DNA of 64,000 bases. Source: a virus. Where the stretch lies: the IMG/VR virus record IMGVR_UViG_3300009551_000004; one strand, written 5' to 3'. Both the position numbers and the translations under genes were made by a program. Shown piece by piece: positions 31,092 to 59,235 of the stretch; the first letter of the stretch is position 1; each line of letters begins with the position of its first letter. The notes under the pieces are model-generated. The model searched no databases. It saw only the letters and a list, made by a program, of their open reading frames with translations, and was not told the origin of the DNA.

Positions 31092-31186
31092 TTGGGAGTG
31101 CGTCGCCTCTGCCAATTGGGCTACCACACCACGAAGCTCGAAGAGGTGAGAGGTGTGGGAAGGGTTCGAACCTCCACTGAAACGCA
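31092..31186 (-). ncRNA. Permuted tRNA-like unit 1 (3' half 31186-31151, 20-nt linker, 5' half 31130-31092; anticodon loop CTCCCAA)
   Basis: The 3' half reads TGCGT-TTCAGT-GGAGG-TTCGAAC-CCTTC-CCACACC-T. The 5' half reads GGTGTGG-TA-GCCC-AATTGGCAG-AGGC-G-ACGCA-CTCCCAA. Confidence 0.55.
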
Positions 31187-31246
31187 CTGACGTTCAGGCT
31201 GAAACTCAAGTTCAGCTTGTGGTCAGGTACTACCTTATCACGTGCG

Positions 31247-44471: not shown

Positions 44472-44607
44472 CACTCCCCCCGTTCGTCACGTTGAGCTAC
44501 ACACTCACACACTCACTCACCTCGGTGACACCTCTCTGACCGGCCAAAACGAAGCCGGTGGCGACACCGGGGCAGGTGAGTGAGTGTGTGAGTTGCACGC
44601 TCTGTGA

Positions 44608-46788
44608 TCAACACGCGAGTCGGTACGTGCGGTCTTCGTCTTTAGCCAACACATTCTTCGAGACGAGCTGGCCGAGCAGGTTGTACACCGCGTTTTCGTT
44701 CTTGATGACCACGCCGGCAGTTTTGAGCGCATCCATGATCTCCGCCGAGGTCAATGGCCTGTTGGCACGTCGAAGCACCCAAACGATTTGATCCGCTCGT
44801 CCTGTCGGCGGAGCTAGATCCTTCAATTCCTCCAATTCGTCATCGGGAATATCGGTATTCAGCTCTTTCGCCACTTCACGGAAGGCTTCTTGCTGTATAT
44901 CAGATATGGTGTCGAAGTCGAGTCCCATATCAGCGGCGAGACGTCGCGCCTCGGCGTCGAGGTCTATCTTTTTTTCGACTGGACGAGAATCGACAACCGT
45001 CATCGGCTTCTTGTTCTTGCGCAAGTAGTCAAGGAATTCCATGGTGACCGTGGTGTGCCGCCGGGCGTAGAGCTTGCCGGCGGCGCGTTGCGACCCCTCG
45101 TCCAAATATGTCTTGAATTTCCGACGTGACCAAGAAACCTGACTCAAGGTGAGGCCGTTGTGCAAACGCGGCTTACTGGGGTCATCCTCTTGGATGTAGC
45201 GACCCTTGACGAGAACGGGGAACGGTGTCCCTTCGTCGTCTTTCAGGTAGAACTCGCCCTTGTTTTCCGGCGGCGCGAGTTTGTAATCCCCCAATTGCCG
45301 CCCCAGGGAGAGAGTGTCTTGCGAATTGAAAGCGACGGCGTAACCGGTCTGTGCTTGAATATCGCCTCCCATCGGGCCGAGCTGGTCAATGGTGTCGCGT
45401 TGAGTCAGATACTTAGCGAAACAACCGGCGGATCCCGCGCCTTGCATGTTCATGCCCAGAAGCGCGGATGAGTGATGTTGCTGCCCATCGTATTCGGCGG
45501 TTACCGTCGTATTGCGCAAGGTGTACATCGCCTCTTCGATGATGCACACGATGTCTGGTAGGCCTACCCGCTCATGCAGACGAAGCGACTGTCGATAACG
45601 CGCTACCCGCATGAGGGCGGCCAGACATTCCGCGCTGTCTTCGGGGCCGACACAGATGAAGTCGAAAGGCATCTCCTCGCCGGTGTCGAGATAGATCTCC
45701 AGCCAGCCAGCCAGCAGGTCGTAAAGCTTTTCCGTGCCGCAGATCCACACCACGGCGTTCTCGCAGCGCGTCAGGTATGCGAGAACATTGTGAATGAGCG
45801 ACGTCTTACCCGATCGCGTCTTGCCGATGTACTGCCCGTGCTGCCGCAAAGACAAATGGACCGGCTTAGCGTCTAGCCCGTACCCGATGAGCATCGGCTT
45901 GCGAACATCGGCCCACTCCAATTCGTCCACGAAGGGATATAGCCGGGCCATGATGTCCTGTATGGTCACGGTGATGGTGTAACGACCCGACAGTTTCATT
46001 TTCTGAATAGCAACCCATCGTGTCTCCAATTCCTTGTTCAATAGTTCGGACAATGCGACGGCGATTGGTTCGGAGTCTTCCGTCGATAGGGTGCGGTTTT
46101 TCTGCGCCAAAGCCCTGGCTGGAATACGTACCTTGAATCGAATTCCAAAGAGGACGCCATCCTCGTCGCGCAACGGCTCCGATTCCACGACTTCGATCCA
46201 GCCGCGCTTAATGCGCTTGAGGGCTAGGCGCATGACCATGACGTCGTGACTCTCTGTCACTGCCGGCAACGGGCCGTCAAACGCCTCCAGCACATGCGGC
46301 GCTAGGTCGACCACTCGACCAGCAGAAACGGCCTGAGTGCGCTCCTGACGGACTTTCTGAAGGCGCGGGCGTAGACGCCCTAAGTAGGGGTCGAGAAGCG
46401 CTCCAGCGAGCACCTGGACACCCGTAACGGCCAGAAGGGCTAGTAGGCCGAGAGGAAGTGCGCTCAGGCCAGCGATCGCGAGGCTGATCGCCACGGCGAG
46501 GTCGGCCACGATCGCCGCCATGATGAGCCGAAAGACGACAGCGCGAGTGTCGATCGTCCAGTTGACGAAGACGTCGACAACGTGAACTAGTCGCTCTGTC
46601 GCAACGATGATGATGAACGCTAGGAACACCATTCCGGCGATGGATAGGGCCACCGGAATGGGGAATAGCAGGGAAATGAGCGCGACGACGAACGTCGATA
46701 GGGCACCCAGCACCGGGAGAAAGACTTTGTAGGGAATCATTTCCTCATCTTTCCGAAAAGGATAATCGGCCCATAACGGATTCGTCAT
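44608..46788 (-). CDS. FtsK/SpoIIIE/TraB-like membrane-anchored DNA translocase
   Basis: 726 aa. N-terminal hydrophobic helices, Walker A GKTRSGKTS, and a C-terminal winged-helix-like segment (LTSAEIMDALKTAGV..VYNLLGQLV). Confidence 0.8.
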   Translation of the reverse strand: MTNPLWADYPFRKDEEMIPYKVFLPVLGALSTFVVALISLLFPIPVALSIAGMVFLAFIIIVATERLVHVVDVFVNWTIDTRAVVFRLIMAAIVADLAVAISLAIAGLSALPLGLLALLAVTGVQVLAGALLDPYLGRLRPRLQKVRQERTQAVSAGRVVDLAPHVLEAFDGPLPAVTESHDVMVMRLALKRIKRGWIEVVESEPLRDEDGVLFGIRFKVRIPARALAQKNRTLSTEDSEPIAVALSELLNKELETRWVAIQKMKLSGRYTITVTIQDIMARLYPFVDELEWADVRKPMLIGYGLDAKPVHLSLRQHGQYIGKTRSGKTSLIHNVLAYLTRCENAVVWICGTEKLYDLLAGWLEIYLDTGEEMPFDFICVGPEDSAECLAALMRVARYRQSLRLHERVGLPDIVCIIEEAMYTLRNTTVTAEYDGQQHHSSALLGMNMQGAGSAGCFAKYLTQRDTIDQLGPMGGDIQAQTGYAVAFNSQDTLSLGRQLGDYKLAPPENKGEFYLKDDEGTPFPVLVKGRYIQEDDPSKPRLHNGLTLSQVSWSRRKFKTYLDEGSQRAAGKLYARRHTTVTMEFLDYLRKNKKPMTVVDSRPVEKKIDLDAEARRLAADMGLDFDTISDIQQEAFREVAKELNTDIPDDELEELKDLAPPTGRADQIVWVLRRANRPLTSAEIMDALKTAGVVIKNENAVYNLLGQLVSKNVLAKDEDRTYRLAC

Positions 46789-46808: not shown

Positions 46809-48170
46809 TCAGTGACGCTGTCGGTAGTCCTGGATGATCTTGGCAACCTCTTCACGCACCTCGGCGTCACGAGCGGCCTTGGCCGTGTTGAGCAGGTGCT
46901 GCTCGTGATCTGCCCGTAGGTCATCCATGCCTTCGGTCTGCTGCGCTAGGTCACGAAACTCGTGAGCCTGAAGGGTTCGCTCCTGTGCCGAGGCGAGCGC
47001 TCGCGCTGCGGCCGTGTCCAGGTATGCGTCACGCGCTGCCTTGGGCAGCATATCCACGGTGGTCACGTTGCTGCTCCTTTTTCTTTGATCGGGAATTGGG
47101 AGAACTTTGTCCGGGTCCGACGTGGGCCATTGCGGCTCGCCCATGCGATGGTAGATCGGCGGCAACCTTTTCGCCTTGCGCACAACGGTAATGCGGGGCA
47201 GGTTATGCGCCCGAATCGGCTTGTAGTGGTCGAGATCCACATTCGGCCACGCAATGTCAGGTGTCTTTGATGCGGTCTTCACTGAATCCTCCGGTCGTGA
47301 CCTGGTTTCCGGCGCGACCGTCGGAGTATCCTTCTTGTCGCCCTTCTTTTTGGTCTTCGTTTTCGGTGGGTCAATCGCGTCAGGCTTTGATGTATCTGGA
47401 ATTTTGCCGGTCAACGGACGCGGCGGCCAGTTGTCCGGCACGCGCGGCCCGGACGTTCCGGCAATCATTCGCCGCTCCCGATTAGGACGCGGCCCCTGGT
47501 TGCCCGGGTTGACCAATGTCTGTGGTGTACGAACGCCTCGCGTCCGGTTGCCGTTCCCGCGCGGTCCCGCCGGAGCTTGAGACCGATCCTGCGACCAGCG
47601 ACGAGACCGCGTGCGACTGGCCGTCTCGCCAGGCTCAGTGGGCTGCGACCGGCGAGACCGACGCCGAGACGGCTGCTGGCCGTTGGTCTCACGGTCGCGA
47701 GACCGCTGACGAGACCATGGCCACCGCTTTGTGGGACCAGTCTCAGACTGCCGATCCTGCGCCGCACGGCGAGACCGAGATTGCGGGCTGCCCGGAGACT
47801 GCGACCGAGACTGAGACGGTCCCGTCGTGCCCCCCTGAGACCGGGTCGCACGATGCCTCTGCGCGGTCTCGGACTGGAAGAAGTGGCGCAACGCCAGGCC
47901 GAGACCAACGAGAATGGCGAGACCGCCAACCGCGATGACGGCCAGCAGCGGCGATTGCAGCCACAAAATCACGCCGCCGACCAGCACAATCGTCACGCCG
48001 AGCGCGGCCGACAGGTGCCAAGGCGGCACGCCGGTCGTCCTGGTCTCGGCCTTTGCCCTGGTCTCCGGCTTCGACGTCTTGGTCTCAGGCTTGGTCTCGG
48101 TCTCACCTTCGACGAGATCCGCAGGTGAAACTGGCTTTGCCGAGGCGAAAACCGTGTCCTCGTCGCTCAT
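46809..48170 (-). CDS. Membrane protein with Glu-Thr and Arg-Ser low-complexity tracts
   Basis: 453-aa ORF with one hydrophobic segment; carries most of the GGTCTC/GAGACC copies. Confidence 0.7.
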   Translation of the reverse strand: MSDEDTVFASAKPVSPADLVEGETETKPETKTSKPETRAKAETRTTGVPPWHLSAALGVTIVLVGGVILWLQSPLLAVIAVGGLAILVGLGLALRHFFQSETAQRHRATRSQGGTTGPSQSRSQSPGSPQSRSRRAAQDRQSETGPTKRWPWSRQRSRDRETNGQQPSRRRSRRSQPTEPGETASRTRSRRWSQDRSQAPAGPRGNGNRTRGVRTPQTLVNPGNQGPRPNRERRMIAGTSGPRVPDNWPPRPLTGKIPDTSKPDAIDPPKTKTKKKGDKKDTPTVAPETRSRPEDSVKTASKTPDIAWPNVDLDHYKPIRAHNLPRITVVRKAKRLPPIYHRMGEPQWPTSDPDKVLPIPDQRKRSSNVTTVDMLPKAARDAYLDTAAARALASAQERTLQAHEFRDLAQQTEGMDDLRADHEQHLLNTAKAARDAEVREEVAKIIQDYRQRH

Positions 48171-48571
48171 TTCCTCGTCACCTCCTCGGTCGTTTCTCGC
48201 GTTGATATGACTGTATCACGCCGGTCTCGCGAATTCACTCATTGAGACCAATGCGAGACCGCGCCCCGGTCTCATGAGACCGGGGCGCGGCAGTCTCAGG
48301 ATGCCTGTTCGCGCTTAAACCGTTCCCGCGCCGTGGCCAGGCGACGGGCGACGGTGGCCCTGCTCAGGTGGGCCGGCAGCGACTGCTGCGCTTCGGGCAG
48401 CTTCAGTGCGTCAGGGTCGTTCCGCTCGACGATGAATCGGAGCAGGGTCTCCACCTCGGCCTCTGCGTCGGCACCGCGCACGGTGAGCGAAATCGTCTTA
48501 GTCTCACTCCTGACCTGCGGAATCTCAGCGGTCTCAACAGTCTCAGCAAGCGGGGTCTCATCCACGGTCTC
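47579..48571. repeat. Dense GAGACC/GGTCTC hexamer cluster (about 26 perfect copies)
   Basis: Counted by eye: 13 GAGACC and 13 GGTCTC on the plus strand, spanning two coding regions and the intergenic spacer. Confidence 0.85.
48261..48288 (-). terminator. Hairpin terminator built from the hexamer motif
   Basis: GCGCCCCGGTCTC-AT-GAGACCGGGGCGC. Confidence 0.7.
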
Positions 48572-49396
48572 ACCGATCGGGAACGGTGCGCCGTAGTCCG
48601 CGCCCCACACGCGCTGAGCGTTGGTGGCGAGCTGCATACCGCGCAGGAAGCGCTCCAAAGCGGCGGGGTCGTCCATGATGCCGGCGGCGGCGAGCGCCTT
48701 AACGAATCGGCGAACGTCCTTTTCGGTGCCCTCGGTGGTCATGCGGATGTGCGTGGCCTTGGCCAGCGCGCGTTCCCGGGCGATCGTCTTCGCGTCACGG
48801 CCCTCGTCGCCGAGGCCGAACAGCGCCAGGAAGCGCTCACGGAATTCGCGGGCAAGGCGGACGAACATCGAGTCGTCGCGGATCTCCAGCCCGCGCACCT
48901 CGATACCGAGCGCGAGGTGCAACATCACCAGGCTCAGGATCGGGCCGAGGATGACGCGGGCGATGCCCACCCAGAAGCCGCTCAGACTCCACGCCATGTA
49001 CGCCGAGACGGCGCAGAGCGTCCACGCGATCAGGCGAGCTGGCCCAGGGTGGCCGTGCTGACGGATCGAAGCGCGCATGCCCCAACCGCAGGCGATCTGC
49101 GCGAGCTCCAAGACGAAGAACATGATGCCGCGCACCCAGAGCGTGTTCACCTCCAGGACGACACCGAAGAACAGCCAGCTCGTGTCGACGGACACCGCCA
49201 TGCCGGCGACGGCCGCGAGGTAGAACAGGCCGGCACCCTTGGCCGCGTCGTCGCGAGCGGCGAGAAAGGCGCGAACGGCGTTGCCGGCCGTCTTGACGAT
49301 CGCGTACACCGTCCACGTGCCCGCTAGGGCGAGAATCGCGTAGAGGGCGGAAACCGCCCACCCCGGTGCGCTGTTCAGAAGCTCGTTGATGCTCAT
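48296..49396 (-). CDS. Polytopic membrane protein (DUF2637-like) with C-terminal HTH-like tail
   Basis: 366 aa with several hydrophobic helices; the tail reads LSRATVARRLATARERF. Confidence 0.65.
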   Translation of the reverse strand: MSINELLNSAPGWAVSALYAILALAGTWTVYAIVKTAGNAVRAFLAARDDAAKGAGLFYLAAVAGMAVSVDTSWLFFGVVLEVNTLWVRGIMFFVLELAQIACGWGMRASIRQHGHPGPARLIAWTLCAVSAYMAWSLSGFWVGIARVILGPILSLVMLHLALGIEVRGLEIRDDSMFVRLAREFRERFLALFGLGDEGRDAKTIARERALAKATHIRMTTEGTEKDVRRFVKALAAAGIMDDPAALERFLRGMQLATNAQRVWGADYGAPFPIGETVDETPLAETVETAEIPQVRSETKTISLTVRGADAEAEVETLLRFIVERNDPDALKLPEAQQSLPAHLSRATVARRLATARERFKREQAS

Positions 49397-53073: not shown

Positions 53074-53148
53074 GCCTTCCTGGCCCAAATGGCAGAGGCC
53101 GTTGATTCAAAATCAACGCAAGTCTGGGTTCGAGTCCCAGGGAGGGCA
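53074..53148 (+). tRNA. tRNA with anticodon CAA (Leu-type anticodon and D arm, but a short variable region)
   Basis: GCCTTCC-TG-GCCC-AAATGGCAG-AGGC-C-GTTGA-TTCAAAA-TCAAC-GCAAGT-CTGGG-TTCGAGT-CCCAG-GGAGGGC-A. Confidence 0.6.
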
Positions 53149-53272
53149 CGTAGTACCGTCATAACCTAGGACATTGACGGAGCACTACCCGCGTACCATA
53201 CGGTCGGCGAAAATACGAAGGTCGCTCCTTCTATCACGGTTTTCGCGGTTCCAGTCCCTGCTGCGCGGTCAG

Positions 53273-53343
53273 GCCGTACAGCGCTGGCTGGGTCGGCGTG
53301 GCTGTAAACCACTCCCGTGGGGGTTCGAATCCCTCGTGCGGCA
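53273..53343 (+). tRNA. tRNA-like, anticodon GTA (Tyr), short variable region and weak D arm
   Basis: Acceptor GCCGTAC / GTGCGGC; anticodon loop CTGTAAA; T arm GGGGG-TTCGAAT-CCCTC. Confidence 0.45.
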
Positions 53344-53355
53344 CAAGAATTACAT

Positions 53356-53429
53356 GCTGGTGTAGCTCAATTGGAAAGAGCACCGCCCTGTCGAGGCGGG
53401 AGTTGCGGGTTCGAGTCCCGTCGCTAGCG
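53356..53429 (+). tRNA. tRNA-Asp (GTC)
   Basis: Canonical cloverleaf with anticodon arm CCGCC-CTGTCGA-GGCGG. Confidence 0.85.
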
Positions 53430-53486
53430 CAAAGTTGGAACTAGTCTTTCCCCGAAAACCAATCTTCCAATGTTCCAACTTTATCC

Positions 53487-53560
53487 GGCCTCGTAGCTCA
53501 GTTTGGGAGAGCATTCGGTTGAAACCCGAAGGGTCGCAGGTTCGAATCCTGCCGGTGCCA
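53487..53560 (+). tRNA. tRNA-Phe (GAA)
   Basis: Anticodon arm TTCGG-TTGAAAC-CCGAA; one acceptor mismatch. Confidence 0.8.
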
Positions 53561-53569
53561 CTTAAGTAC

Positions 53570-53642
53570 GGCTCCATAGCTCAGTCGGTAGAGCTCCCGA
53601 CTTTTAATCGGGAGGTCGCAGGTTCGAACCCTGCTGGGGTCA
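53570..53642 (+). tRNA. tRNA-Lys (TTT)
   Basis: Anticodon arm CCCGA-CTTTTAA-TCGGG with canonical D and T arms. Confidence 0.85.
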
Positions 53643-53645
53643 CAA

Positions 53646-53685
53646 GTTTCTACTGTGCATTCAACCCTGGATGCACAGTAGAAAC
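53646..53685 (+). other. Perfect 15-bp hairpin between tRNAs
   Basis: GTTTCTACTGTGCAT-tcaaccctgg-ATGCACAGTAGAAAC. Confidence 0.8.
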
Positions 53686-53691
53686 GTCCAG

Positions 53692-53765
53692 AGCGGGATG
53701 GCGCAGTTCGGTAGCGCGCCGGGCTCATAACCCGGATGTCATCGGTTCAAATCCGATTCCCGCCA
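53692..53765 (+). tRNA. tRNA-Met (CAT), initiator-like
   Basis: Anticodon arm CCGGG-CTCATAA-CCCGG has three G-C pairs next to the loop; the 1-72 pair is mismatched (A x C). Confidence 0.8.
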
Positions 53766-54032
53766 CGAGAGGGGCAATGCCGGTTCGAATCCGGTTGGTG
53801 AAAGCATCCGGTCACGGCCGGAGGGTGACTAACTGTCGGCTAACAGGCAAGCCACTCCTCGTTAAACAGGCGCACGGCAACGATCCATCGACACAAGGTC
53901 GGTGACACCTGGCGGTGACGGCCGCCGTGTGGCCTGCTACACCATCCGACATCTTGGCCCGAGTGTCGGAGTTTCATTCAAAGTGTGCGCACACAGGACG
54001 CGGCACGTGGCGTCTATCGGGCTGCCATAACT

Positions 54033-57741: not shown

Positions 57742-59235
57742 GTGGCTGACACTCTCCTGGAGATCAAGCTCGATAAACTTCGCCGCCTTCAAGAACTGCA
57801 ACGCCAGAAGCGTGAGATCGAAAGCGGAGATGCGGCTCGCGTCGTATGGCGCGAGTCGGCGAGGCCCGATCAGCTTGAACCCGAAGGCGACTGGTTTGTC
57901 TGGCTGATCCTCGCCGGCCGAGGCTGGGGCAAGACGCGGACCGCCGCTGAGCTCATGGCGGAGAAGGCGCGACGCTACCCCGGCGCGCGTATCGCCCTGG
58001 TGGGCCGGACGTTCGGCGACACCCGCGACACCATGATCGAGGGTGACTCGGGACTGCTGAACGTTTTCAAGCAGTCGGAACTTCGTGGCGGCAAGGTCGA
58101 TGGTGCATGGAACCGATCCCTCGGTGAAGTGTATTTGGAAAACGGCACCAAGTTCTTCTCGTATTCGTCCGAAAAGCCCTGGCAACTTCGTGGTCCTCAG
58201 TTCCATTTTGCCTGGGGAGACGAGTCGTGCTTCTGGGCCGACGCCCATAAAGGCACTGCCGCTGACACGACGTGGTCAAACCTGACGATTGCCACCCGAC
58301 TCCCCCGCAAACCGGGGTGGCCTCTGGACTACCAAAGCCGCATTGTGGTGGCCACGACTCCTCGGCCGGTGGCTCTGCTTAAGGTGTCCGATCCGCAACA
58401 AGTTTCTCCCGGCCTAATGCAGCGTGACAACGTCATCGTCACCCGTGGTCGCACCGTAGACAATCTGGAAAATCTCAACGACAACTACAAGGCGAATGTT
58501 GTTGCCCCTCTGCTGGGCACGCAGCTCGGTCTTCAGGAGCTCGACGGCGAGATTCTGGAGAATCGAGACAACGCCTTGTGGAAGCGTGAATGGATTGAGG
58601 CTGACCGCTACGGCGCTGACCGCGCTAGCGAGCTCGATCTGGTACGCGTTGTCGTGGGTGTCGACCCGTCGGTCACCAGCGGAGAAGCCGCCGACCTGAC
58701 GGGCATCATCGTCTGCGCCGCAGACCGTGAAGGTAATGGTTACGTTCTCGCCGATTACACCATGCGCGGCACGCCGAAGCAGTGCATGCAGAAAGTCAAA
58801 GAGGCGTACGACACCTGGAAGGCAGACCGCGTTGTCGCCGAGGTGAACAACGGCGGCGACTATATCGGCACCGTGTTGCGCACGGTGGACGACAACATGG
58901 CATTTCGAGCTGTGCGTGCCAGTCGAGGTAAGAACACTCGCGCTGAGCCGATCTCGGCTTTGTATGAGCAGCATCGCGTGCATCACGTCGGCATGTTTCC
59001 TCAACTCGAAGACGAAATGTGCACCTGGGCACCGGGTGATCCGGAATCGCCGGACCGCATGGACGCCATGGTCTGGGCAATGTACGACCTGAAAGACCTG
59101 ATCGGCGGCTCCTGGCTGGACGCCTACAGCGTCGTTCGATGCCACAAGTGCGAACGACCCTTTACGAAGACATTCGGCGGCAAGCCGCGCGAAAAGTGCC
59201 CGCACTGCAATACGGCTGTTGAGGAGGCCGCGTGA
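57742..59235 (+). CDS. terL: Terminase large subunit
   Basis: 497 aa; Walker A-like AGRGWGKTRTAAE; typical size and position upstream of the portal. Confidence 0.85.
   Translation: MADTLLEIKLDKLRRLQELQRQKREIESGDAARVVWRESARPDQLEPEGDWFVWLILAGRGWGKTRTAAELMAEKARRYPGARIALVGRTFGDTRDTMIEGDSGLLNVFKQSELRGGKVDGAWNRSLGEVYLENGTKFFSYSSEKPWQLRGPQFHFAWGDESCFWADAHKGTAADTTWSNLTIATRLPRKPGWPLDYQSRIVVATTPRPVALLKVSDPQQVSPGLMQRDNVIVTRGRTVDNLENLNDNYKANVVAPLLGTQLGLQELDGEILENRDNALWKREWIEADRYGADRASELDLVRVVVGVDPSVTSGEAADLTGIIVCAADREGNGYVLADYTMRGTPKQCMQKVKEAYDTWKADRVVAEVNNGGDYIGTVLRTVDDNMAFRAVRASRGKNTRAEPISALYEQHRVHHVGMFPQLEDEMCTWAPGDPESPDRMDAMVWAMYDLKDLIGGSWLDAYSVVRCHKCERPFTKTFGGKPREKCPHCNTAVEEAA

What the first reader, a model, noticed from the sequence alone, without database searches (positions are those of the whole stretch)
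47579..48571. Roughly 50-fold pile-up of GGTCTC/GAGACC next to the FtsK/TraB-like translocase: a possible clt/KOPS-like recognition array
I counted 13 GAGACC and 13 GGTCTC (plus-strand reading) within about 1 kb, plus several one-off variants. A random hexamer would be expected about 0.5 times on both strands.

The copies span two different genes and the intergenic spacer. In 46809..48170 the same hexamer is produced by two unrelated peptide repeats in opposite orientation: Arg-Ser-Arg (cGG TCT Cgn) at 47579-47924 and Glu-Thr (GAG ACC) at 48042-48104. Five copies lie in the noncoding 48171-48295, and three more in the C-terminus of 48296..49396. That pattern argues for selection at the DNA level rather than for a protein repeat.

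Orientation is polar and flips near 47.95-48.04 kb. The extended consensus is roughly cGAGACCg. Immediately upstream lies a membrane-anchored FtsK/SpoIIIE-like ATPase with a C-terminal winged-helix-like segment.

In Streptomyces plasmids the FtsK-like TraB binds clustered 8-bp repeats (the clt locus) next to traB. FtsK and SpoIIIE read polar KOPS and SRS motifs through their gamma domain. An alternative is a pac-type terminase recognition array. GGTCTC is also the BsaI/Eco31I site, so this is the opposite of restriction avoidance.
Basis: partly seen in the sequence, partly recalled or inferred. Interest (0 to 1): 0.8.

Follow-up and report, generated by a model that had tools for sequence, protein, structure and literature searches.

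The report
Lineage-specific DNA motif array beside phage translocase
A 1-kb stretch of a large actinomycete phage carries about 35 copies of a 7-base DNA word written across two genes and the spacer between them, next to a conjugation-type DNA pump; it is most likely a docking array for a DNA-binding protein of that pump module, and it has visibly reshaped the proteins it overlaps.

Summary
GGTCTC/GAGACC occurs 25 times in 47579-48571 and 23 times in the other 63 kb, about 69-fold over background (Poisson 4e-37). The core is [T/C]GAGAC[C/T], about 35 copies.

It is selected at the DNA level. Synonymous shuffles of gene B give 3-6 copies against 16 observed. Thirteen of 19 Ser codons in its disordered middle are the rare TCT. 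Five copies lie in 125 nt of non-coding spacer.

Ten related loci keep such an array, but the word differs by lineage: TGAGACC, TGACACC/GTGSCAC or CGAGAC[G/A]. An eleventh, partial locus (TGAGAGY) shows only the start of one. Two distant relatives place it downstream of the translocase, largely in non-coding DNA.

The neighbouring 726-aa protein has the FtsK motor fold and TraB-like architecture. TGACACC is also the published repeat bound by the FtsK-like TraA protein in the pWTY27 clt.

Polarity is not conserved, so a KOPS-like reading fails. The motif class tracks the C-terminal HTH of membrane protein A, not the translocase winged helix. That winged helix instead tracks a separate inverted repeat just after its own gene.

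Verdict: a new variant of a known kind. Binding and function remain untested.

The parts
47579..48571 (.). Motif array: 25 exact GAGACC/GGTCTC and about 35 GAGAC cores, consensus [T/C]GAGAC[C/T]. It spans the 3' end of gene A, the spacer, and the 5' third and disordered middle of gene B.
   Evidence: the same position and architecture in L001, L002, L006, L008
48296..49396 (-). Gene A, 366 aa: multi-pass membrane domain, acidic ET linker, small C-terminal three-helix (HTH-like) domain
   Evidence: AF2 model with helices 305-325, 333-339, 346-365 at pLDDT >90; homologues in Lentzea/Amycolatopsis/Pseudonocardiales; no Pfam/NCBIfam family
48302..48484 (-). C-terminal HTH-like domain of A; putative recognition helix LSRATVARRL, the candidate reader of the array
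   Evidence: helix residue 2 is R/K in all ET/TGAGACC lineages, H/Q/F in DT/AT (TGACACC, GTGSCAC) lineages, and Q in the ES/TGAGAGY lineage
48485..48583 (-). Acidic ET-rich linker of A carrying 4 GAGACC and 2 GAGACT
   Evidence: replaced by DT/DS/AT/ES linkers in lineages with other DNA words
48171..48295 (.). Non-coding spacer with 5 motif copies
   Evidence: 3-8 copies in the same spacer of six relatives
48259..48290 (.). Perfect 32-nt palindrome CCGCGCCCCGGTCTCA|TGAGACCGGGGCGCGG built around two inverted motif copies; hairpin after gene A
   Evidence: dG -54 kcal/mol for 48200-48300, z -6.7; conserved in L001; motif-built palindrome also in L004
48210..48218 (-). Extended -10-like element TGATACAGT upstream of gene B, 6 nt after a motif copy. 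The promoter reading is an inference from my own reading of the sequence.
   Evidence: TGATATAGT in L001, GTGATACAGT in L004 and L015; not picked up by the simple sigma-70 scan
46809..48170 (-). Gene B, 453 aa: ET-rich N-terminus, two TM helices, Arg/Ser-rich disordered middle (residues about 97-235, 47466-47882) that carries the reverse-oriented copies, conserved C-terminal helical domain
   Evidence: (substitutions by codon position 28/26/53 in the middle against L001)
44608..46788 (-). TraB/FtsK-like translocase (726-aa ORF; probable start at M17, 46740): four N-terminal TM helices, FtsK motor fold with Walker A GKTRSGKT, C-terminal winged helix
44503..44594 (-). Second cis element: inverted repeat (arms ACTCACACACTCACTCACC / GGTGAGTGAGTGTGTGAGT) enclosing the operon terminator 44555-44570, directly after the translocase stop codon
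   Evidence: dG -64 kcal/mol, z -6.8; arm class tracks translocase helix alpha-3 across 14 loci

Best explanation
The stretch is a cis-acting array of about 35 binding sites ([T/C]GAGAC[C/T]). The binder is a sequence-specific DNA-binding domain encoded in the same three-gene membrane module. That module is membrane protein A with a C-terminal HTH, membrane protein B, and a TraB/FtsK-like double-strand DNA translocase.

The sites are overprinted on tolerant protein segments (the acidic linker of A, the N-terminus and disordered middle of B) and on the spacer. The array most likely tethers or loads the phage (or phage-plasmid) DNA onto the membrane translocation complex. It would be the functional analogue of the clt locus of actinomycete conjugative plasmids.

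The likeliest reader is the HTH of A. The translocase winged helix more probably reads the separate inverted repeat just after its own gene.

Shown here: the cluster is real, it is selected at the DNA level, its position is conserved while its word is lineage-specific, and the translocase has a TraB-like fold and architecture.

Inferred: that a protein binds the array, which protein binds it, and what binding achieves.
For: - Enrichment: 25 copies against 0.36 expected.
- Codon evidence in gene B: 16 hexamers against 3.0 (genomic codon resampling, maximum 8) and 6.1 (within-gene synonymous permutation, maximum 12). The observed count exceeds every shuffle in 6 of 6 loci.
- Codon choice: 13 of 19 Ser codons in B residues 96-235 are TCT, against 6% in reference genes (p = 4e-8). 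Seven of 10 ET dipeptides in B are GAGACC, against 1 of 11 in reference genes.
- The word is carried in at least four frame/orientation combinations (ET, xSx, GL, VS, RD) and in non-coding DNA.
- Same position and block architecture in L001, L002, L006 and L008, whose translocases are 56-79% identical to the window's.
- Between the window and L001, 23 of about 34 copies sit in the same aligned column and the totals are 34 and 33. Copies turn over while the number is kept.
- The word changes by lineage: TGACACC/GTGSCAC in L003, L004, L009; TGAGAGY in L015. The overlapped peptides change with it, ET to DT/DS/AT to ES.
- In L005, L010, L021 and L022 (38% identity) a CGAGAC[G/A] array lies downstream of the translocase, largely non-coding.
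- Translocase: Foldseek to FtsK motor 2iut/6t8b/2ius with E 1e-10 to 4e-9; TM helices and C-terminal winged helix.
- Precedent: clt loci are clusters of 5-9-bp direct and inverted repeats next to tra. pWTY27 TraA footprints on four TGACACC repeats (PMC3583192). Spd homologues have been noted in actinophages (PMC4447253). L005 and L010 carry a divergent GntR/UTRA gene like TraR.
- Reader assignment: the recognition helix of the A HTH partitions perfectly with the DNA word in 17 sequences.
Against: - No binding data exist.
- The A-HTH/motif correlation coincides with three clades of the A tree. It therefore counts as about two or three events, and the HTH coding sequence is physically adjacent to the array.
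- The fold search gave no significant match for A. Its HTH rests on an AF2 three-helix prediction and weak Pfam HTH hits.
- The L005 clade has only an analogous, not detectably homologous, A protein.
- Classical clt loci have 4-9 repeats in 50-175 bp at the 3' side of tra, not about 35 over 1 kb on the 5' side.
- L007, L012, L013 and L014 show no clear array.
- The genome is a tailed phage (terminase, portal), for which no TraB-type transfer is known.
- In the 3' end of gene A of this window the count is explained by ET peptides plus common codons.
Confidence: 0.45

Rival explanations
1. Operator or silencing array. The sites are bound by a repressor, possibly the A HTH or an unlinked regulator. 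The repressor coats the promoter and the 5' part of the B-translocase operon to keep a potentially lethal TraB-like gene off. This would be a kil-kor type control rather than a DNA-loading site.
For: - Motif copies flank and abut the putative extended -10 element of gene B and form the hairpin after gene A.
- In Streptomyces plasmids unregulated traB is toxic and is repressed by TraR (PMC4447253).
- L005 and L010 carry a TraR-like GntR gene.
Against: - Thirty-five sites over 1 kb, most of them far inside coding sequence, is far more than operators need.
- In L005/L010 the array lies downstream of the translocase gene, next to other small genes, not at its promoter.
Confidence: 0.2
2. Partition centromere or membrane-tethering site. 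It would serve stable inheritance of an extrachromosomal prophage, with the array playing the role of parS/parC.
For: - Relatives occur on plasmids of 51-59 kb (pKutB-C3, pGBA129-24a).
- Centromeres are arrays of short direct and inverted repeats.
- L007 has a ParA-like gene 2 kb downstream of the translocase.
Against: - No ParA/ParB-type gene was seen next to the array in the window or in the eight close relatives.
- The array is always linked to the translocase module instead.
Confidence: 0.1
3. By-product of low-complexity protein evolution. ET-, RS- and DT-rich disordered segments expand by replication slippage. The DNA word would be a passive trace of repeated codons.
For: - Relatives carry true hexanucleotide microsatellites, (GACACT)n and (GACAGT)n, in gene A.
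- The gene A count in this window is not above the codon-shuffle expectation.
- All segments concerned are predicted disordered.
Against: - Slippage makes tandem direct repeats. It does not make the same 7-mer in both orientations, in several frames, at irregular spacing, in the non-coding spacer, and in largely non-coding arrays of distant relatives.
- Rare TCT codons are used 13 of 19 times.
- The copy number is held constant through turnover.
Confidence: 0.07
4. Packaging (pac) recognition array or replication origin iterons.
For: - P1 pac and many origins are clusters of short repeats (background knowledge).
- The genome encodes a large terminase and a primase-polymerase.
Against: - The array is 9 kb from the terminase gene, with a five-tRNA cluster between, and 46 kb from the primase-polymerase.
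- There is no AT-rich unwinding element; G+C is 61-63% here.
- Linkage in relatives is to the translocase module.
Confidence: 0.05

Closest known systems
[quoted passage not shown]
   Same: - A cluster of a short (5-9 bp) word in direct and inverted copies.
- It lies adjacent to, and partly inside, genes of a membrane-anchored FtsK-like translocase module.
- The word is element-specific.
- The TGACACC of three relatives is identical to the pWTY27 repeat (PMC3583192).
- The module also contains small membrane proteins, like the Spd proteins.
   Different: - About 35 copies over 1 kb instead of 4-9 over 50-175 bp.
- It lies on the 5' side of the translocase gene and is overprinted on two upstream genes.
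- The host replicon is a tailed phage.
- The motif class does not follow the translocase winged helix.
- A second, clt-like inverted repeat sits at the classical 3' position.
KOPS / SRS polar motifs read by the FtsK/SpoIIIE gamma domain
   Same: A short G-rich word associated with an FtsK-family motor that has a C-terminal winged helix.
   Different: - KOPS and SRS are dispersed genome-wide and strictly polar.
- Here the word is confined to 1 kb and depleted elsewhere.
- Its orientation is mixed and not conserved among relatives.
Plasmid centromeres made of short repeats (for example the pSM19035 omega heptad arrays and R1 parC); comparison from background knowledge
   Same: Many copies of a 7-bp word in direct and inverted orientation, forming a site for cooperative binding of a small DNA-binding protein.
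   Different: - Centromere repeats are contiguous and non-coding, and lie next to parA/parB-type genes.
- Here the copies are irregularly spaced (6-60 bp), mostly inside coding sequence, and linked to a translocase.
SpdA2 sps palindromes of pIJ101 (PMC4170104; title and abstract only were seen)
   Same: A protein encoded in the plasmid's stability region (named SpdA elsewhere in this literature) that recognises a short repeated motif on its own replicon.
   Different: No homology to A was detected. The number and layout of the sps sites were not compared here.

Membership tests
clt locus of actinomycete conjugative elements | Cluster of short (5-9 bp) direct and/or inverted repeats | tested here: met
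   about 35 copies of a 7-bp word in both orientations
clt locus of actinomycete conjugative elements | Lies next to or overlapping the FtsK-like tra gene | tested here: met
   The array ends about 790 bp upstream of the translocase start, within the same gene cluster. This is syntenic in 8 loci. It is on the 5' side, not the classical 3' side.
clt locus of actinomycete conjugative elements | Bound specifically by the C-terminal winged helix of the Tra protein | tested here: inconclusive
The covariation proxy argues against: L008 has the helix of the TGACACC lineage with a TGAGACC array. The pWTY27 TGACACC precedent argues for.
clt locus of actinomycete conjugative elements | Required in cis for conjugal transfer | not testable with these tools
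   needs mating or spread assays
clt locus of actinomycete conjugative elements | Carried by a conjugative plasmid or AICE | tested here: not met
   The window encodes a large terminase, tail-fibre-like protein, primase-polymerase, RNA ligase and a tRNA cluster. A portal gene lies near the module in L010.
KOPS/SRS-type polar motifs | Genome-wide distribution with strand polarity | tested here: not met
   25 of 48 copies lie in 1 kb and the word is depleted elsewhere. Orientation is mixed and not conserved.
FtsK/SpoIIIE/TraB translocases (the 726-aa neighbour) | RecA-type FtsK motor fold with Walker A and B | tested here: met
   Foldseek 2iut/6t8b/2ius, E 1e-10 to 4e-9, probability 1.0. Invariant G322..G327-K328 and E419.
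FtsK/SpoIIIE/TraB translocases (the 726-aa neighbour) | Sequence-level match to the FtsK_SpoIIIE family model | tested here: not met
   No Pfam, NCBIfam or PDB sequence hit. Only PHROG FtsK families at 8.6e-8 and 4.5e-5, and 31% identity to the phage PIS 136 FtsK.
FtsK/SpoIIIE/TraB translocases (the 726-aa neighbour) | N-terminal membrane anchor and C-terminal winged helix (TraB architecture) | tested here: met
   AF2 helices 20-138. C-terminal H664-675, H681-690, H698-710, then two strands. Weak PadR/RPA32 winged-helix hits.
Partition centromere (parS/parC) | Adjacent parA/parB-type genes | tested here: not met
   None among called genes of the window module or the eight close loci. A ParA-like gene is present only in L007.
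pac site | Located in or beside the small/large terminase genes | tested here: not met
   The large terminase is at 57742-59235, 9 kb away, beyond a tRNA cluster.
Origin iterons | Adjacent initiator gene and AT-rich unwinding element | tested here: not met
   G+C is 0.61-0.63 in the 46-50 kb windows. The primase-polymerase is at 110-1642.

The most novel reading that the evidence does not exclude
These large phages of mycelial actinomycetes (Pseudonocardiales) carry a complete conjugation-type double-strand DNA transfer module. It comprises a TraB-like pump, Spd-like membrane proteins and two cis sites. They use it to move phage or prophage DNA between hyphal compartments or cells without virions. 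The 1-kb overprinted array would be the handle that a membrane-anchored HTH protein uses to bring the genome to the pump. This would be a phage-conjugation hybrid, and also a clear case of DNA-level selection dictating the composition of disordered protein segments.
Probability: 0.15. Interest if true: 0.9.

Novelty: new variant of a known kind. Interest (0 to 1): 0.62.

Why it matters
If the array is a docking site for the translocase module, it gives a concrete and testable cis element for a long-standing puzzle: why many actinophages encode FtsK/TraB- and Spd-like proteins. Thoma et al. 2015 only speculated that these help phage DNA to spread.

It also shows something of general interest. 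A dense DNA-binding-site array can be written through protein-coding sequence. When the recognised word changes (TGAGACC, TGACACC, TGAGAGY), the encoded low-complexity peptides change with it (ET/RSR, DT/RGT, ES).

Practically, the unusual composition makes public gene callers break or invert gene B in several relatives.

Tried and rejected
- Plus-strand ORF 47516-47938, which reads 7 of the 9 plus-strand GAGACC copies in 47579-47924 as Glu-Thr. Rejected as a shadow ORF. Substitutions against L001 concentrate at third positions of the minus frame, which are second positions of the plus ORF. The minus ORF is intact in all relatives.
- Covariation of translocase helix alpha-3 (AVYNLLGQ against SV[H/R]NLLGK) with the array word. 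It failed at L008.
- Treating the A-HTH/motif correlation as multiple independent events. Rejected, because each class is one clade.
- Megablast of the locus against GenBank phages and PLSDB plasmids gave no match. A single-protein scan of IMG/VR found nothing. Profile scans of IMG/VR and JGI metagenomes returned mostly loci already in hand.
- Pfam, NCBIfam and PDB sequence searches gave no family for A, B or the translocase.
- The fold search for A gave nothing significant.
- Rfam has no family in 44-50 kb.
- I looked for a helical periodicity in copy spacing by eye and saw only multiples of 3/6.
- Arrays were sought and not found in L007, L012 and L013. L014 and L011 show only weak or ambiguous enrichment.
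Full report
**The observation**

GGTCTC/GAGACC occurs 48 times in the 64-kb window, and 25 of those copies lie in 47579-48571. The other 63 kb predict 0.36 copies for that span, which is a 69-fold excess (Poisson 4e-37). About ten one-mismatch variants lie in the same stretch. The extended word is [T/C]GAGAC[C/T], and the 5-mer core occurs 35 times.

Outside the stretch the word is not enriched and is somewhat depleted.

**Context**

The window is part of a large tailed phage of actinomycetes. It encodes:
- a large terminase (57742-59235), a tail-fibre-like protein, a primase-polymerase and an RNA ligase;
- six tRNAs, five of them clustered at 53074-53766.

On the minus strand the locus reads as follows.
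- Gene A (49396 to 48296, 366 aa).
- A 125-nt spacer.
- Gene B (48170 to 46809, 453 aa).
- A 726-aa ORF (46788 to 44608).

The last protein has no Pfam, NCBIfam or PDB sequence match. Its AlphaFold model (pLDDT 75) matches FtsK motor domains: 2iut, 6t8b and 2ius at E 1e-10 to 4e-9, followed by TcpA and EccC. It has four N-terminal membrane helices, an invariant Walker A and a C-terminal winged helix. This is the architecture of Streptomyces TraB.

Homologues come from metagenomic contigs of 104-128 kb, from Amycolatopsis genomes and from a Kutzneria plasmid. Homologues of A occur in Lentzea, Amycolatopsis and other Pseudonocardiales.

**Is gene B real?**

The plus-strand ORF 47516-47938 would read seven of the copies as Glu-Thr. 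However:
- B is an intact ORF in every relative examined, including those where public gene calls broke it;
- between the window and L001, substitutions in the Arg/Ser-rich middle fall 28/26/53 on codon positions 1/2/3 of the minus frame.

B is therefore a real protein. It has two membrane helices, a fast-evolving disordered middle and a conserved C-terminal domain.

**DNA-level selection**

*Synonymous shuffles.* With the protein sequence kept, resampling with genomic codon usage gives 3.0 hexamers in B (maximum 8 in 1000). Permutation of B's own codons gives 6.1 (maximum 12). The observed count is 16. The same test with the local word exceeds every shuffle in gene B of all six loci tested.

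*Codon choice.* Thirteen of the 19 Ser codons in B residues 96-235 are TCT, a codon used for 6% of Ser in reference genes (p = 4e-8). Seven of ten Glu-Thr dipeptides in B are GAGACC, against 1 of 11 in reference genes.

*Frames and non-coding copies.* The word is carried forward as Glu-Thr, in reverse as x-Ser-x, and occasionally as Gly-Leu, Val-Ser or Arg-Asp. Five copies sit in the non-coding spacer.

*Exception.* In the 3' end of gene A the count (4) is not above expectation (1.8-2.6). That part alone could be an ET linker with ordinary codons.

**Relatives**

Four loci keep the same word in the same place with the same block layout: L001, L002, L006 and L008, with translocase identity of 56-79%. 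The layout is:
- forward copies in the A linker;
- mixed copies in the spacer, including a motif-built palindrome;
- forward copies at the B N-terminus;
- a dense block in the B middle.

Between the window and L001, 23 of about 34 copies are in the same aligned column, and the totals are 34 and 33. Individual copies turn over while the number is kept.

Other lineages carry a different word.

| Loci | DNA word | Position of the array |
|---|---|---|
| L003, L004, L009 | TGACACC and the palindromic GTGSCAC | same place as in the window |
| L015 | TGAGAG[T/C] (partial contig: seen only in the 3' end of A and the spacer) | same place as in the window |
| L005, L010, L021, L022 (38% identity) | CGAGAC[G/A] | downstream of the translocase, largely non-coding, spilling into the disordered N-terminus of another small membrane protein |

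Where the DNA word changes, the overlapped peptides change too. ET/RSR becomes DT/DS/RGT/RAT, or ES. This is hard to reconcile with a protein-driven repeat. It is what co-evolution with a DNA-binding protein would produce.

L007, L012 and L013 show no clear array, and L014 and L011 are ambiguous.

**Polarity**

The orientation switch seen in this window is real. In L002, L006 and L008 the middle block is mixed, and the non-coding arrays of L005/L010 contain both orientations, including abutting palindromes. The polarity here is best explained by which frames can carry the word. A KOPS/SRS-like directional code is not supported.

**Who reads the array?**

*The translocase winged helix.* Its helix alpha-3 is xVYNLLGQ in most TGAGACC loci and SV[H/R]NLLGK in TGACACC loci. 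L008 combines SVHNLLGK with a TGAGACC array. Its motor is nearest to the TGAGACC group (68% to P0005), while its winged helix is nearest to the other group (58% to P0013).

The translocase helix does track a second element. This is an inverted repeat immediately after the translocase stop codon that encloses the operon terminator (window 44503-44594; dG -64 kcal/mol, z -6.8).
- Its arms are (CTCA)n-type in ten loci with Tyr or Phe at the variable alpha-3 position (x-V/L/A-Y/F-N): the window, L001, L002, L005, L006, L007, L010, L014, L021 and L022.
- Its arms are TCATATGA-type in all four loci with an S-V-H/R-N helix.

This element sits where classical clt loci sit.

*The A protein.* It ends in a three-helix domain predicted with pLDDT above 90. 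Its putative recognition helix reads:
- S[R/K]AT in all eight ET/TGAGACC sequences;
- [K/S/P/T][H/Q/F][S/A/T]T in the DT/AT lineages;
- AQAT in the ES/TGAGAGY lineage.

These classes coincide with clades of the A tree, and both correlated pairs are physically adjacent. The evidence is therefore suggestive, not decisive.

**Comparison with what is known**

clt loci of Streptomyces plasmids are clusters of 5-9-bp direct and inverted repeats next to the FtsK-like tra gene. The Tra protein binds them through helix alpha-3 of its winged helix. pWTY27 TraA footprints on four TGACACC repeats (PMC3583192), the same word as in L003, L004 and L009.

Small membrane Spd proteins work with TraB, and Spd homologues in actinophages have been proposed to help phage DNA to spread (PMC4447253). 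L005 and L010 also carry a divergent GntR/UTRA gene like TraR.

The present array differs in four respects:
- its size (about 35 copies over 1 kb);
- its position on the 5' side of the translocase gene, overprinted on genes;
- its replicon, which is a tailed phage;
- its probable reader.

Partition centromeres, origin iterons and pac sites fail on their neighbouring-gene criteria.

**Verdict**

The finding is real. It is a DNA-level, lineage-specific binding-site array that belongs to a TraB/Spd-like translocase module of a phage family. My best reading (0.45) is a clt-like docking array, probably read by the HTH of membrane protein A, with a separate translocase-linked inverted repeat at the classical clt position. 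The main rivals are an operator/silencing array (0.2) and a centromere (0.1).

It is a new variant of a known kind. All binding and function steps remain to be tested.

Noticed in passing
window 44503-44594 (minus strand): An inverted repeat with low-complexity arms (ACTCACACACTCACTCACC / GGTGAGTGAGTGTGTGAGT) encloses an intrinsic terminator (44555-44570) directly after the translocase stop codon. An inverted repeat in this position is present in 14 loci. The arm sequence falls in two classes, (CTCA)n and TCATATGA, and these track the translocase helix alpha-3. It may be the true clt equivalent.
   Followed up: partly
window 47700-47730 (B residues about 149-154); L005:4257-5954: A short motif R-W-P-W-S lies in the disordered middle of B (KRWPWSRQRS). 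It recurs three times as GRRWPWSTK in the otherwise unalignable B analogue of the distant clade. It may be a conserved short linear motif.
   Followed up: no
L003:3864-4046; L004:4003-4046: True hexanucleotide microsatellites, (TGACAC)n and (GACAGT)n, encode DT and DS runs in the gene A linker of relatives. Part of the array evidently grows by slippage.
   Followed up: partly
L015:2848-3030: A small ribbon-helix-helix-like ORF is inserted between genes A and B in the TGAGAGY lineage. The RHH assignment comes from reading the sequence only.
   Followed up: no
L005:2176-3006, L010:2098-2931: A divergent GntR+UTRA regulator gene lies upstream of the module in the distant clade. It resembles TraR, the kil-kor partner of traB in pSVH1.
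   Followed up: no
window, outside 47400-48700: GAGAC is under-represented outside the array: 79 observed against 98-152 expected from Markov orders 1-3. This is compatible with avoidance of ectopic sites.
   Followed up: partly
window 53074-53766 and 31150-31239: A cluster of five tRNA genes (Leu-CAA, Asp, Phe, Lys-TTT, Met) lies between the module and the terminase region. A separate tRNA-Ser (TGA) is also present.
   Followed up: no
window 32873-33748 (minus): An ORF matches a PHROG transposase family strongly (E 5e-88). It is probably an insertion sequence inside the phage genome.
   Followed up: no
L002, L003, L009, L010 (region between gene A and the translocase): Public gene calls miss gene B or replace it with opposite-strand shadow ORFs, although the full-length ORF is intact (verified in L003). 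The motif-driven composition misleads gene finders.
   Followed up: partly
window 46740-46788: The translocase probably starts at Met17 (46740), as in the identical database protein P0001 and most homologues. That leaves a 68-nt gap after gene B.
   Followed up: no
L011 (Actinoalloteichus plasmid pGBA129-24a) 3249-4434: An unannotated 1.2-kb gap lies upstream of the B-like and translocase genes. It is enriched in CCGTCC/GGACGG (35 copies in 1.2 kb against 51 in the other 11.8 kb). This could be another array or an uncalled Pro/Arg/Gly-rich gene.
   Followed up: no
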